Both the position numbers and the translations under genes were made by a program. From positions 30,566,001-30,630,000 of the forward strand of contig OZ024756.1 in the NCBI GenBank assembly GCA_964016885.1: DNA of 64,000 nucleotides. Reading direction: 5' to 3'. The DNA is from Eledone cirrhosa (lineage: Eukaryota). Below are positions 19,797 to 60,890 of this stretch, piece after piece (position 1 is the first letter of the stretch; the number at the start of each line of letters is the position of its first letter). The notes under the pieces were generated by a model. It worked only from the letters and a program-made list of their open reading frames with translations. It was not told the origin of the DNA and did no database searches.

Positions 19797-20000
19797 GTAG
19801 GAGGTGAGTTTTATTGTAGTACAATAAAGCAATGCATATGTTGATTTAAAACTCCACTATTCACAAGTGTGTTTTAACCTTCATATCATGTCTCCCTATT
19901 TTATCTGACGAAAACGCAAATGTTATTGCATGATGATATTTGTTTTTGAAATGCGCATAATAAAATACATGGAACTCTTTTAACCATCTTTTGATCTTAT
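19797..20000. mobile_element. Family A element: inverted tail tip joined to full body
   Basis: GTAGGAGGTGAG..AAGCAATGCA (identical to 3211-3250) is fused to TATGTTGATTTAAAAC..GATCTTATAT. TA flanks. Confidence 0.8.
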
Positions 20001-20025
20001 ATATTATATATATATATATATATAT

Positions 20026-20258
20026 AACGAAGGAAATGTGGTAAGAACCAGATGGACCATAACGCACCAAAGTACTCAATACTTAGAGTAGTAGAGTGGG
20101 TAATAGGAACGAGTAGGATCCCGACGGCTGAGCTCAAGCCGTTTCGACAGCTAATTCTGGATTAAAAAAAAAAAGAAAAAAAAAAGAAAAACATTTTTTT
20201 TAGTCCAGAATTAGCCGTCGAAACGGCTTGAACTCTGCCGTCGGGGTCCTACTCGTTC
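20026..20258. mobile_element. Family B foldback element with A-rich/T-rich spacer
   Basis: Tail on the left, arms around a 40-nt A-run/T-run spacer (20161-20201). A diverged copy lies at ~20408-20500. Confidence 0.8.
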
Positions 20259-22215
20259 TACCAACTGATATTATCATAATATTATAAAATTAAATCAAAT
20301 TATTTAGAACTACAAGTGTAGTCATTCTTTTCCTTTCTTTCAAATACACCTAACTGTACCAAGGACCTCACACATTTGCCAATATATATTTATATATGAA
20401 AAGCGTCAGTGCCCCGACGGCTGAGCGCCGGGTGTTTCCACAGCTAAATCCGAACGTTCGGATCTAGGTGTCGGGGTTCTGCCTCTTTTCATATCACCCA
20501 CTCATTTTATTAATGTTCTATATTGCCCATACGTACATATGTATGTGTATATATGTTTCTGTATGTATATATATGTGTGTGTGTACTTGTGCATTCTTAC
20601 ACACACACACACACAGATATATATATATATATATAGTATTAATTAATTGGAGGAAACAGTTGTAAGCACAAAAATGTTTTGAACAGTTCTTTGATTCTTA
20701 TATTTCATATATATATATATATATATATATATATATATATATATATATGTGTGTGTATATATATATATATATATATATATATATATATATATATATATAT
20801 ATATATATATATATGTGTGTGTGTATATATATATGTATATATATATATATATATATATATATATATATATATATATATATATATATATATATATATATAT
20901 TGTGAAGTTTCTAAAAGCAGAAGAACTATTACAATACAAGTCTCAAAGTTTAAAATATATCCTGGTCGAAAAAAAAAAAGGTCACCACGATTTTTATCAA
21001 AAAATCTATTTTAAACTTCTTTTAAATCATGTCATTGTCTTTGTCTAACTTCTAAGTTATCAATCATAAACTAATGTGAATATATATATATATATATATA
21101 TATATATATATAAAGAGAGAGAGTGAGAAGGAGAGAGAGAGAGAGAGATGGGGGACGAGAAAGGTCTAGAGTGAGTGATATAAATACACGGAACACTCAC
21201 ACGCACACACACACACACACACACACATACACACACACACACACACACACACACATATATATATATATATATATATATATATATATATATATATATATAA
21301 ATGAAAGGTATAGAAAACATTGTAGCAAAAAGCCAGCAGTATTCCATAATATATAAGTGACTATAGCGTCAATAAATATATATATATATATATATATATA
21401 TTTTTTTTTTATATATATATATATGTATATATATATATTTAGGGTGAGAGAGATGGAGTGGTATAAATACATATATATATATTCATATATATAATTGTAT
21501 ATATATATATATATATATACCTACATATACATATGGTTGTGTATAATCGTGTGTACATACCTTTATGAATACTTATGTATATTCGCGTCAGTAATCAATA
21601 CGGTTGTTTCATCGATGACTTTTCAGTAATTTGATAATCTCAAATGCTCTCTCATTAAATAGAATTACAAGCGTTTGTGTATTCCTGTGCCATATAAACG
21701 TTTAACGTTCGTCTGATTTACACCGAGGTGCAAGGGGATGTAACTCGGGTGGTCATTTGAATAACAGGTATAATTCATGGAACATTCTTCAGCTAGGCTT
21801 CTGTCTACGAAATTTCTCTTATAAACTATTGGTCAAAGCAAGTCATTGGTACAAAGAAGCTACAACATGGAATGGAAACTAAGACAGAAATACAATTACA
21901 AATACAGACACACTGACTTCCTTACCTCAATCATGAAAACACACACAGGCACATTAACACACACGCATACTCACACACACACACACGTACACACACAACC
22001 ACACACATATATATTGATATAAAACATTTTTTTTCTGTATATGTACTAATATATATATATATATATATATATATATATATATATATATATATATATATAT
22101 ATACATATATATATATATATATATAGATATATATATGCATATATATATATACATTATATATATGTTTATATAAACATATATATATATATATATATATATA
22201 TATATATATATATAT

Positions 22216-22638
22216 GTAGAAGTTATATTTAATTTGTTGGGATACAAGCAAATATTTTTATAACTGATATAAAGCACTCAACACATTTTTGGAGTAAAAA
22301 TACAATATATTAACAAATGGAAACTATATTTATAAAATCATATTTATTTCATTATACATATTTCAAGGACACCAAAGCAAATTATGGTGCGTTTTCATCA
22401 GATAAAATATAATATAGATCAGTTTTATAAACAAATATTGACATACACTTAAAGAATGCGGGAGGTTCCAGCCGAAATGGTCGCATTCTTTAAGGGTATG
22501 TCAATATTTGTTTATAAAACTGATCTATATTATATTTTATCTGATGAAAACGCACCATAATTTGCTTTGGTGTCCTTGAAATATGTATAATGAAATAAAT
22601 ATGGTTTTATAAATATTGTTTCCATTTGTTAATATATT
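22216..22638. mobile_element. Family G foldback element
   Basis: 157-bp arms 22304-22460 and 22482-22638, 21-nt spacer, tail 22216-22303. TTTTATCTGATGAAAAC as in family A. TA flanks. Confidence 0.8.
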
Positions 22639-58882: not shown

Positions 58883-59200
58883 AGTAATAATAATAAATTT
58901 GAAGACTAAAATCCAAAGAAGGCTCGATAAGGATTAATATATATTAAATATATAAGAACCGTAGAGCAAATATTTATTAAAATAACAGATTAAAGTTTAA
59001 GCAAAGAATCTCAGCTTTCACCCATAACGGGATCTTCTGAAACTAATCTTAGATTCAGAAGATTGGGGCTAACCAAAGTAAGGTACTCAATACTTAGCAG
59101 AGTATACATATTTAATATAGTTTAATTCGGGAGAAATCATCAGAAAGCCCCTGATGATTTCTCCCGAATGAAACAGTTCTAGTCTGTTGAATCTATTTCT
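58883..59200. mobile_element. Chimeric insert: full family D unit fused to a family C foldback
   Basis: D tail plus body 58883-59042, short foldback TCTTCTGAA..TTCAGAAGA, then C tail (59061-59120) and C body with CTGATGA (59151) and GAAAC (59170). Confidence 0.75.
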
Positions 59201-59717
59201 ATATTATATATATATATATATATATATATATATATAGAGAGAGAGAGAGAGAGGGGGGGGGGGGGAGGCTGCAGCAGTTTCCCTTTACAAATTTTAGTCA
59301 CAAGTCAGTGGTCCACTAGTTGTTATTTTTGTTGTGGTTGCTTTTGTTTTGCAACTAATGTTACATTTATTGTGGTTGCTAACACCGTTGAGCTGCTATT
59401 GTATTTGTTGTTGTTGTTATTCTCAATGGTATAGGTGGCCATTAGCTGTGTTGTCGTGCGGAATCTACTAATCCTGTATTAGTTTTACATATAATATTTA
59501 AGTCATTTGGTAAAGCTACATCAATGGTCTAACAGTATTTGTCTTTCTATATATTACTTCGATTCAAACTGACATAATCTTCCTTTCTGATCATATATGA
59601 TCGATCAACAAGATCCCAAACCTCATTCGCTTGCCGAGTGGGGTGAACCTTGTCAAATCAGACCAAGGAGACTTTTGTTTTCATTGCTGATTCTACCAGT
59701 CGCGACTCCTTGGCAGA

Positions 59718-59837
59718 AAGAGCAACGTGAAATATAGTGCCTTCCTCAAGGACACAACGCATCATCCGCTCCAAGAATTGAACTCGTAACCTCACAATTG
59801 CGAATCCCACATTCTAACTACTAAGTGACGCGCCTTC
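59718..59837 (-). mobile_element. SINE family 2
   Basis: Homologous to 37450-37566. Confidence 0.75.
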
Positions 59838-60750
59838 TGATCATATACATGACGTATAAATGCAATATGTTGACTTTTAATAAACATGCACATAGTCTTG
59901 CAGTTATTAAAATAAGCTGTGGTCACATCACGGGTACATAATTATCCGTGTAAGATCACTATATACGTATAATATTTCAGGGTTTTTATGCATCTTCAGT
60001 AGACGTTTATATACTATGGTATACTGAGTTAAAAATAAATATCTTTCTACATATAGGAATTTAAAGAGCAGCAGACTGAAGATGAAACATATTTTATTTT
60101 TCCCATAATTGACGAAGCATGCGCACTGAAAAAGAATGTTTATCAGAAAAATATATTTCCTAACGTATTAACATTCTAGTTATGTTAATGGCTTCCAACT
60201 TTATTTAATATTTTTATATTAAAATCACAATTTATTTCAATTTGCTTCTGCTTCAATAAATATTTACAATTAATCATTTATTAAAGACGGAACACTTAGA
60301 AATATTTTAGAGTGGTGTTTGTTATCTTCATTTGCATATGTATATGTATATATATATATATATATATATATATACAGTATATATATATATATATATATAT
60401 ATATATATATATATATATATATATATATACAGTATATATATATATATATATATATATATATATATATATATATATATTTATTTATTTATCAGTGCGTCTG
60501 TTTCTGACCCTCTGTCTGTAATTGTCTGTGTGTGTATACAAATACATATGTGTGTGTGTGTAGACAATTACAGACAGAGGCTCAGAAACAGACACACTGA
60601 TAAATAAATATATATATATATATATATATATATACATATATATATATACATATATATATATACATATATATATATATATATATATATATATATATATATA
60701 TATATATATATATATATATACACGTGTGTGTGTGTGTATGTGTACAATAT

Positions 60751-60890
60751 AGAAATTGATTCTACAGGACTAGAACTATTTCATTCGAAGGAAATCATCA
60801 GGAAAGCAGGGCTTTCTTATATTAAATATTTATACTCTGCTATGTATTGAGTAGCTTACTTACTGTGGCTACCCCCGATTGAACCTGGGA
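60751..60890. mobile_element. Family C element: inverted body plus direct tail
   Basis: Same layout as 26367-26500. Minus-strand CTGATGATTTCCTTCGAATGAAATAG. Confidence 0.75.

What the first reader, a model, noticed from the sequence alone, without database searches (positions are those of the whole stretch)
19797..60890. Two fixed 3' endpoints per family suggest programmed twin priming
Seen: most inserts join (TA)n at one end through the tail tip (A ..CACCTCCTAC, B ..CTTCGTT, D ..ATTATTACT) and at the other through a fixed internal site that is itself TA-like (A GATCTT|ATAT, B GTTCCT|AT, C ATTTCT|ATAT, E ATAC|TA). In 26367 and 60751 the inverted body and the tail barely overlap. In 19797, 30193, 56847 and 57048 sequence is missing between the two pieces. 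In 3211, 5267, 22216 and 26765 they overlap fully, giving palindromes. Colinear copies (46364, 58883) give the original order. Known: L1 twin priming produces such inversions, but at variable internal sites. Inference: both ends of a cut in (TA)n prime cDNA, one at the RNA 3' end and one at a dedicated internal site, and the two cDNAs are then joined.
Basis: partly seen in the sequence, partly recalled or inferred. Interest (0 to 1): 0.82.

Follow-up and report, generated by a model that had tools for sequence, protein, structure and literature searches.

The report
Penelope retroelement stubs with one-sided tails
The short mirror-image inserts in this animal's TA repeats are stubs of Penelope-like jumping genes, a known pattern, but their two fixed ends give a cheap way to test how these poorly understood elements are copied into DNA.

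Summary
In multi-copy families A, B and D the outer ends fall on two sites, 76-89 nt apart by alignment, and 21 of 22 two-armed inserts carry the tail on one side only. Raw reads of another sample show the internal site of family A turning into (TA)n and two head-to-head joints. This is the known Penelope-like element (PLE) insertion: inverted 5'-truncated end plus one-sided tail. Hammerhead details, spacing and a tail hairpin point to the (TA)n-targeting Hydra clade; no ORF was found to prove it. Two RT start sites bounding the tail, on both target strands, were shown in vitro for another PLE in 2024. Paired priming of both cut ends is therefore plausible (about 55%), but both starts are probably internal, not the RNA 3' end, and 12 fully overlapping palindromes do not fit L1-style twin priming. 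Not found in my searches: the 71-97 nt tail, its conserved bulged hairpin, and 9 gap or barely-overlap inserts that separate the models.

The parts
19797..20002 (.). Family A insert, gap class: 43 nt of tail tip (minus) joined to 168 nt of body (plus) that ends at the internal site
19897..19967 (+). Type I hammerhead of family A (8-bp stem I, long stem II, palindromic minimal stem III)
20027..20259 (.). Family B insert, overlapping class; tail on the left; right end 17 nt short of the TA run; only the 3' half of a hammerhead is present
20074..20097 (-). Tail hairpin RCTC-stem-loop-stem-NN-GAGY of family B
22216..22629 (.). Family F palindrome (64% like A), hammerhead on both arms (seen in relaxed listing, missed by the strict scan), tail about 97 nt on the left
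26367..26500 (.). Family C insert, barely overlapping (4 nt), hammerhead with one core change on the inverted body, tail 71 nt with hairpin 26445-26463
26765..27082 (.). Family G palindrome, hammerheads at 26918 (minus) and 27011 (plus), tail about 82 nt on the left
30194..30280 (.). Family C insert, gap class; complete hammerhead 30229-30277 (plus)
32311..32524 (.). Family B insert, overlapping class, arms differ at 1 of 54 positions
36641..36731 (-). Family D, tail only, TA on both sides
42389..42598 (.). Family B insert, overlapping class, short templated repeats at the inner junction
42663..42853 (.). Family H insert (second copy 456-645), one-sided extension, no hammerhead seen
44894..45077 (.). 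Family B insert, overlapping class, arms differ at 5 of 50 positions
46364..46470 (+). Colinear, diverged relative of family C (68%)
50523..50642 (.). Family B insert, short class (10-nt body arm)
56849..56941 (.). Family D insert, gap class
56964..57008 (-). Tail-motif fragment between TA runs
57049..57175 (.). Family D insert, gap class
58884..59062 (-). Colinear family D copy with hammerhead core variant CAGAAGA; joined directly to the tail of a family C insert
59063..59200 (.). Family C insert, short class, with a 19-nt fold-back at the inner junction; its tail tip is replaced by the D copy
60751..60889 (.). Family C insert, barely overlapping; hammerhead core on the inverted body; tail tip abuts (CA)n
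3211..3634 (.). Family A palindrome (reference copy): hammerheads at 3397 (minus) and 3537 (plus), internal site 3297-3300, tail hairpin 3268-3292
1352..1514 (-). Family A single arm ending at the internal site, with hammerhead
3669..3793 (.). Family B insert, short class (tail arm stops about 12 nt past the internal site)
5267..5635 (.). Family E palindrome, hammerhead-like motif with an 8-nt core, tail about 84 nt on the right
10261..10463 (.). Family B insert, overlapping class, templated repeats at the inner junction and a 15-nt loss in the short arm

Best explanation
The inserts are 5'-truncated stubs of several endonuclease-bearing Penelope-like elements (about 90%), most likely of the (TA)n-targeting Hydra clade (about 70%). 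The RNA reads: body with hammerhead, a TA-like site, a tail that opens with a bulged hairpin, then probably more sequence (5' UTR or flanking TA). The GIY-YIG/RT protein cuts both strands of (TA)n (inferred; shown for another PLE on AT-rich DNA). One RNP holds the RNA by the tail and offers two registers: one cut end primes at the tail tip, the other at the TA-like site just 5' of the hairpin. The internal cDNA runs to a fixed 5' limit. The tip cDNA either stops early (gap class), stalls at the second primer (barely overlapping class) or displaces it and also runs to the limit (palindromes). Host end joining seals the two cDNAs head to head, sometimes with short templated repeats. Shown: the anatomy, hammerhead motifs, end positions, asymmetry. 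Inferred: every enzymatic step and the role of the hairpin.
For: Hammerheads: 7 strict hits, all in inserts, against a mean of 0.01 (max 1) in 100 shuffles; relaxed cores in C, D, E, F. Same architecture described for PLEs (PMC8557442, PMC3846280). Two RT starts delimit the tail and both strands are extended (PMC11167929). Asymmetry 21 of 22. Nine of 21 tail arms are too short to have templated the body arm; two such joints are in raw reads. Five single arms end at the internal site without a tail. Arms of one insert are closer than arms of different inserts: B 15/257 against 125/1010, A 1/167 against 6-16 per 163-168. Cleavage-site-to-end distances: window 12-53 and 96-137 nt (C tip 83); 24 published Hydra consensuses give 10 at 29-47, 11 at 87-152, and 62, 69, 354. 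Tail hairpin: 10 hits with 3 or more inner pairs, all in tails, against a mean of 1.46, max 5; clear in 3 of 6 printed Hydra consensuses, partial in 1 (by eye).
Against: No RT or GIY-YIG remnant among 86 distinct frames scanned with Pfam (most picked from 147 candidates), and no genome was held, so no family is tied to an ORF. None of six 10-12 nt window motifs occurs in the published consensus file, so none is one of those families. Family B lacks the 5' half of the hammerhead in every copy; H and I show none. Twelve of 21 inserts duplicate the body, which needs strand displacement, a second RNA or fold-back. Two of 5 B inserts have arms as different as unrelated copies (6/58, 5/50). Fold-back pieces at inner junctions (59063, 10261, 42389) show that self-priming occurs. 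Tail folds are not better than shuffles (z -1.6 to +0.9), and the hairpin is in the minimum-energy fold only for A and partly C. Both descriptors were written after looking at the inserts. The PLE tested in vitro starts at a site not homologous to the cut DNA, unlike the TA-like site here.
Confidence: 0.55

Rival explanations
1. Single priming plus fold-back: one cDNA starts at the tail tip, folds back on itself at its 3' end, and the new strand is captured by the other TA overhang when it reaches the TA-like site (or is cut there by the endonuclease). Gap and short classes are later deletions of unstable palindromes.
For: Explains the strict asymmetry and near-identical arms; fold-back pieces at inner junctions. 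Self-priming was proposed in PMC3846280 (on an antisense template), and endonuclease resolution of the intermediate as the source of the tail in PMC8557442.
Against: 9 of 21 inserts need a secondary deletion. In 19797 and the read joint 3241/3465 the body arm starts at the same place as in the intact palindrome, while five tail arms and one read joint stop 4-33 nt past the internal site. Internal starts exist in vitro.
Confidence: 0.25
2. Dual priming: two RNAs on a protein dimer each prime one cut end, with an asymmetric dimer fixing one at the tip and one at the internal site.
For: Overlapping arms need no displacement; 2 of 5 B inserts have dissimilar arms that share variants crosswise with other inserts; a dimer is predicted for the tested PLE; 'dual priming' was proposed for L1.
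Against: 3 of 5 B inserts and A 3211 share private variants on both arms (gene conversion between arms could mimic this); stalling just past the internal site suggests a shared template; no reason for strict asymmetry is known.
Confidence: 0.15
3. Not retroelements: MITE-like DNA elements, replication fold-backs in (TA)n, or assembly errors.
For: Palindromic shape and TA targets; one symmetric, hammerhead-free palindrome (60478-60607) could be of this kind.
Against: Hammerheads on the arms, variable inner truncation, one-sided tails, and head-to-head joints in raw reads.
Confidence: 0.03

Closest known systems
Insertion architecture of endonuclease-bearing Penelope-like elements: inverted 5'-truncated pLTR plus one-sided tail (Arkhipova 2013, PMC3846280; Craig 2021, PMC8557442)
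   Same: Head-to-head inverted end, tail at one end only, palindrome at the inverted junction, AT-rich or (TA)n targets.
   Different: Tail 71-97 nt here against 30-40 bp in those texts; only ORF-less stubs of 87-424 nt seen; gap and barely-overlap classes are not described in the passages read.
Hydra clade of PLEs (Craig 2021, section 11 and supplementary files S1, S2, S7)
   Same: (TA)n preference; canonical hammerhead near the 3' end; U after the core and U before GAAA (14 of 25 listed families; families C, D, G here); two classes of consensus 3' end; TA-like site followed by a GCTC/GAGC bulged hairpin in 3 of 6 printed consensuses.
   Different: No window family matches a printed consensus; outer hairpin pair is A-U here and G-C there; RT and EN motifs that define the clade could not be tested.
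PAc (Poseidon of Anolis) in vitro mechanism (Frangieh 2024, PMC11167929)
   Same: Two RT start sites bounding the tail; AT-rich target; hammerhead upstream; a stem-loop at the start region.
   Different: There the start is not homologous to the cut DNA, no strand preference for either start was seen, and the parts read give no model for the inverted copy; here the internal site is TA-like and the two starts are always paired one to each end.
L1 twin priming and dual priming (as summarised in Meyer 2010, PMC2837659)
   Same: Both ends of the cut prime cDNA, giving an inversion.
   Different: L1 primes at poly(A) and at a variable internal site and leaves a deletion; here both sites are fixed and 12 of 21 inserts duplicate the body.
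Minimal hammerheads of PLEs (Cervera and de la Pena 2014, PMC4209133) and non-LTR retrozymes (bioRxiv 10.64898/2026.07.22.740005)
   Same: Type I fold, long stem II, palindromic minimal stem III (A, E, F), pairs of hammerheads 100-700 bp apart on opposite strands.
   Different: Not head-to-tail tandem arrays as retrozymes are; core variants in D and E.

Membership tests
Penelope-like elements (EN+) | Type I hammerhead in the pLTR | tested here: met
   7 strict hits in A, C, G against 0.01 in shuffles; relaxed cores in D, E, F; B has the 3' half only; none seen in H, I
Penelope-like elements (EN+) | Inverted 5'-truncated copy joined head to head | tested here: met
   raw-read joints
Penelope-like elements (EN+) | Tail at one end only | tested here: met
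   21 of 22 two-armed inserts
Penelope-like elements (EN+) | Tail length 30-40 bp as described | tested here: not met
   71-97 nt. The figure comes from other clades; published Hydra consensus ends suggest a longer tail, so I treat it as typical, not defining
Penelope-like elements (EN+) | Telomerase-like RT and GIY-YIG ORF in the parent element | not testable with these tools
   No genome held; no remnant in 86 frames; 0 hits in two metagenome scans
Penelope-like elements (EN+) | Partial tandem forming a direct pLTR | tested here: inconclusive
   No same-family tandem in the window; one cross-family head-to-tail junction C to D at 59062/59063
Hydra clade | Insertion into (TA)n | tested here: met
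   16 of 21 with TA runs at both ends; shared with Naiad and Neptune, so not specific
Hydra clade | Canonical hammerhead near the 3' end | tested here: met
   specificity of the U...U flanks to this clade not tested
Hydra clade | RWK, DKT, CxCX5C motifs, no CCHH | not testable with these tools
   no ORF
Naiad clade | No canonical hammerhead | tested here: not met
   A, C, G have one; H and I remain open
L1-type twin priming | Inversion with internal deletion, no duplication of the body | tested here: not met
   12 of 21 overlap fully; 9 of 21 fit
L1-type twin priming | First priming at the RNA 3' end | not testable with these tools
   No RNA run listed; indirect evidence against from Hydra-1_Ajap 5' start and PMC11167929
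Non-LTR retrozymes | Head-to-tail tandem units each with a hammerhead | tested here: not met
   All hammerhead pairs are inverted

The most novel reading that the evidence does not exclude
Hydra-clade PLEs integrate by programmed paired priming: one RNP bound to a conserved bulged hairpin in a long (70-95 nt) tail sets two fixed registers on one RNA, each served by one end of a double-strand cut in (TA)n, the internal one by base pairing to a TA-like site. The inverted pLTR and the one-sided tail of all PLEs would then be the normal product of this step, with no separate second-strand priming. The hairpin would be conserved from cnidarians, echinoderms and crustaceans to this host.
Probability: 0.35. 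Interest if true: 0.7.

Novelty: new variant of a known kind. Interest (0 to 1): 0.42.

Why it matters
How PLEs make their tandem, inverted and tailed insertions is named as unsolved in PMC8557442, and PMC11167929 leaves the steps after the first priming unvalidated. About 30 inserts in 64 kb imply very many natural products per genome. Their classes (gap, barely overlapping, overlapping, single arm) and arm-to-arm variants can separate paired priming, fold-back and two-RNA models by counting alone. The tail hairpin is a concrete candidate for the protein-binding site. The elements themselves are ordinary genomic debris of a known kind.

Tried and rejected
Rfam scan of the window: the 150 matches shown of 330 are microRNA-type hairpin models and one viral UTR model, all below gathering score; no hammerhead model among them, 180 not shown. 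No whole genome. Pfam on 87 frames, 86 distinct: only a zf-RVT hit of an unrelated LINE at E below 0.001. Metagenome pattern scans for B and A: 0 hits each. Six window motifs against the Craig 2021 supplement: 0 hits; line breaks in the FASTA could hide some. The 10-mer tail motif with one mismatch is not enriched by itself (16 against 11.6 expected), although all 9 exact matches lie in tails. MAFFT did not keep the hairpin arms in register across families, so no formal covariation count was run. Folding of tails and hammerheads is no better than shuffles. No RNA holder listed, which says nothing about expression. Runs X4 and X7 gave only 25 and 1 pieces. Arm ends do not sit at the hammerhead cleavage site in the copies inspected, so a cleaved RNA as main template was set aside. 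ARAGORN found no tRNA. Searches of earlier findings by place and by sequence were empty. MITE and assembly-artefact readings rejected as above.
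Full report
Setting. The window is AT-rich animal-type DNA saturated with (TA)n. No genome was held. The host was not determined; that it resembles cephalopod DNA is my recollection, not a result.

1. The observation. The quoted junctions are all present. 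In A, B and D the outer ends fall on two sites: the tip (A 2 of 2, B 7 of 7, D 4 of 4) and a site 86-89, 76-80 and 86-87 nt inside. Because that site is TA-like, its exact base is ambiguous by 3-4 nt; measured from the last non-TA base, tails are 71-97 nt. I curated 30 inserts by hand: 21 two-armed with a one-sided tail, 1 symmetric palindrome without hammerhead (60478), 8 single-armed. Of the 21, 12 overlap fully, 5 barely, 4 have a gap. The figure 0.5^21 printed is only a guide, since four families are single copies, three inserts (H twice, I) have no hammerhead, and the list was made by eye. Exceptions: the C tip varies by about 10 nt, 5 of 21 lack a TA run at one end, and in 59063 the tip is replaced by a D copy.

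2. Independent reads. The A arm 3211-3466 was laid on 4 of 24 listed runs. In X24 (raw RAD-seq reads, same species label as the best holder, another study) 5020 reads were laid and 1991 fit only in part. The best-supported loose ends include 3297 (295 reads) and 3300 (197 reads), continuing as (AT)n; contigs of X1 show 18 and 10 there. Other loose ends (3310, 3362-3371) continue as non-TA sequence and look like sister families; 142 rows were not shown. Two strand-switch joints appear: 3241/3465 (97 reads, 1 start, possibly one locus) and 3304/3452 (12 reads, 2 starts), a gap-class and a barely-overlapping insert that are not in the window. RAD stacks count reads, not loci. So the inversions are not assembly errors. 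The tip was not testable, as the reference ended there.

3. What they are. A type I hammerhead descriptor gives 7 hits, all in inserts of A, C and G, against a mean of 0.01 and a maximum of 1 in 100 block-wise dinucleotide shuffles (descriptor written after seeing the motifs). A relaxed listing shows cores in C, D (CAGAAGA in 2 of 2 copies), E (8-nt core) and F, and only the GAAA-stem III half in B. Read on the hammerhead strand, both outer ends of each insert are 3' ends and the arms meet head to head. This is the arrangement described for PLEs: an inverted 5'-truncated copy and a 30-40 bp tail often at one end only (PMC8557442, passages; PMC3846280, passages). PMC4209133 (parts 1-2 of 4) reports minimal hammerheads with palindromic stem III and opposite-strand pairs 100-700 bp apart, ascribed to truncated PLEs.

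4. Which clade. The supplement of PMC8557442 (parts 2, 52, 53 of 59 and searches; section 11) lists the Hydra clade: almost all families target (TA)n and carry canonical hammerheads. Fourteen of 25 listed hammerheads have a U after the core and a U before GAAA, as do C, D and G (my count; specificity untested). Distances from the cleavage site to the consensus 3' end, computed for 24 families (one row with a 5' hammerhead left out), are 29-47 nt in 10, 87-152 in 11, and 62, 69 and 354 in the rest; window families give 12-53 to the internal site and 96-137 to the tip, 83 for C. The window tails share a motif 4-20 nt past the internal site that can form RCTC-stem-loop-stem-NN-GAGY: 10 hits with 3 or more inner pairs, all in tails of A, B and C, against a mean of 1.46 and a maximum of 5 in 100 shuffles; at 2 or more pairs 14 hits, 12 on the sense strand of tails, against 4.25 (pattern post hoc, and six hits are copies of one family). 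Inner pairs swap between families (C-G in A and F, U-A in B, C, E). By eye the same hairpin, with a G-C outer pair, follows a TA-like site at the 3' ends of Hydra-2_Amil and Hydra-2_Ajap, imperfectly in Hydra-1_Crog, and stands twice at the 5' start of Hydra-1_Ajap, whose 3' end stops at a TA-like site; it was not seen in Hydra-1_Amil or Hydra-1_Obim. Against: no ORF remnant, no identity with a printed consensus, folding energies at shuffle level.

5. Mechanism. PMC11167929 (parts 1-2 of 4 read; a search of its 3 text supplements gave no hits, and its figures could not be seen) shows for one PLE that both target strands are cut and extended and that RT starts at two internal sites that bound the tail. 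The Hydra-1_Ajap 5' start points the same way. What the window adds is the pairing: one tip and one internal end per insert. Nine tail arms are too short to have templated their body arm, and five single arms end at the internal site, which favours a separate priming there. Body-arm inner ends cluster (A within 6 nt; B 9 of 12 within 17 nt, next to a long A/T tract), as expected from run-off at a fixed 5' limit. Arms of one insert are usually near-identical (B 15/257 within against 125/1010 between; A 1/167; E 4/138, F 3/156, G 4/105), which favours one template, though two of five B inserts do not follow this and gene conversion can mimic it. Twelve overlapping palindromes do not fit L1 twin priming, which leaves a deletion (PMC2837659, passages). 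I give paired priming on one RNA with optional displacement 0.55, fold-back with later deletion 0.25, two RNAs 0.15.

6. Novelty. The elements and their architecture are known in kind. Eight library searches and the passages read showed no paper that applies twin or paired priming to PLE inversions, or that describes a 70-95 nt tail or a tail hairpin; the 'Penelope' plus 'twin priming' search listed 3 papers, seen as listings only, none on PLEs by title. [quoted passage not shown] Also seen: bioRxiv 10.64898/2026.07.22.740005 part 1 of 5, and passages of PMC8969392, PMC13282606 and PMC12910113, which add nothing on mechanism. Earlier notes of this scan describe similar PLE stubs in other genomes; they are unchecked leads.

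Verdict. Observation confirmed; interpretation partly supported; new variant of a known kind; interest 0.42.

Noticed in passing
window 7016-7308: Palindrome in (TA)n with a 40-nt one-sided extension, no hammerhead, and a centre (7141-7200, plus) that looks by eye like a tRNA-derived head with A and B boxes; ARAGORN found nothing. Could be a SINE inserted in the same inverted way.
   Followed up: partly
window 58884-59200: A family D copy is joined directly to the tail of a family C insert, head to tail, with no TA between: a cross-family partial tandem, by template switch or by insertion at the tip.
   Followed up: partly
window 59033-59039 and 6020-6026 (minus); 5418-5425 (plus): Hammerhead core variants: CAGAAGA in both D copies that hold the core, and an 8-nt core on both arms of E. 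Cleavage untested.
   Followed up: no
window 10396-10445, 42522-42545, 59125-59150: Short templated repeats and fold-backs at inner junctions, like those left by end-joining polymerases or RT jumps (recalled resemblance).
   Followed up: no
window 20027-20259 and 44894-45077: In these two B inserts the arms differ as much as unrelated copies, and one arm of each shares a variant with an arm of the other insert; a hint of two templates.
   Followed up: partly
window 60478-60607: Symmetric palindrome in (TA)n with no tail and no hammerhead; the only symmetric case.
   Followed up: no
window 27518-28632, 28770-29309, 45441-46026: Three related 3' ends of a LINE (zf-RVT hit, E 6e-6, just under the curated cut-off), beside (TCTA)n.
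   Followed up: partly
window 52817-53410: 198-aa frame after (TAA)n that reads by eye like the C-terminal restriction-like endonuclease of an R4/Dong-type element (recalled); no Pfam hit.
   Followed up: partly
window 13504-14028, 16567-16889, 43804-44020, 46040-46236, 49069-49659, 52175-52983, 55035-55614, 63518-63648: Abundant 200-250 nt repeat, often in head-to-tail tandems, with A- and B-box-like motifs by eye; probably a tRNA-derived SINE.
   Followed up: no
window 32924-33554: A 16-nt unit three times direct and twice inverted inside a long TA array.
   Followed up: no
window 698-846 and 9824-9972: Two-copy family next to TA runs with a short internal inverted repeat and no hammerhead seen.
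   Followed up: no
window 3211-3793, 19797-20276, 56849-57175: Inserts of different families sit side by side, 20-35 nt of TA apart; each insertion leaves new targets on both sides.
   Followed up: no
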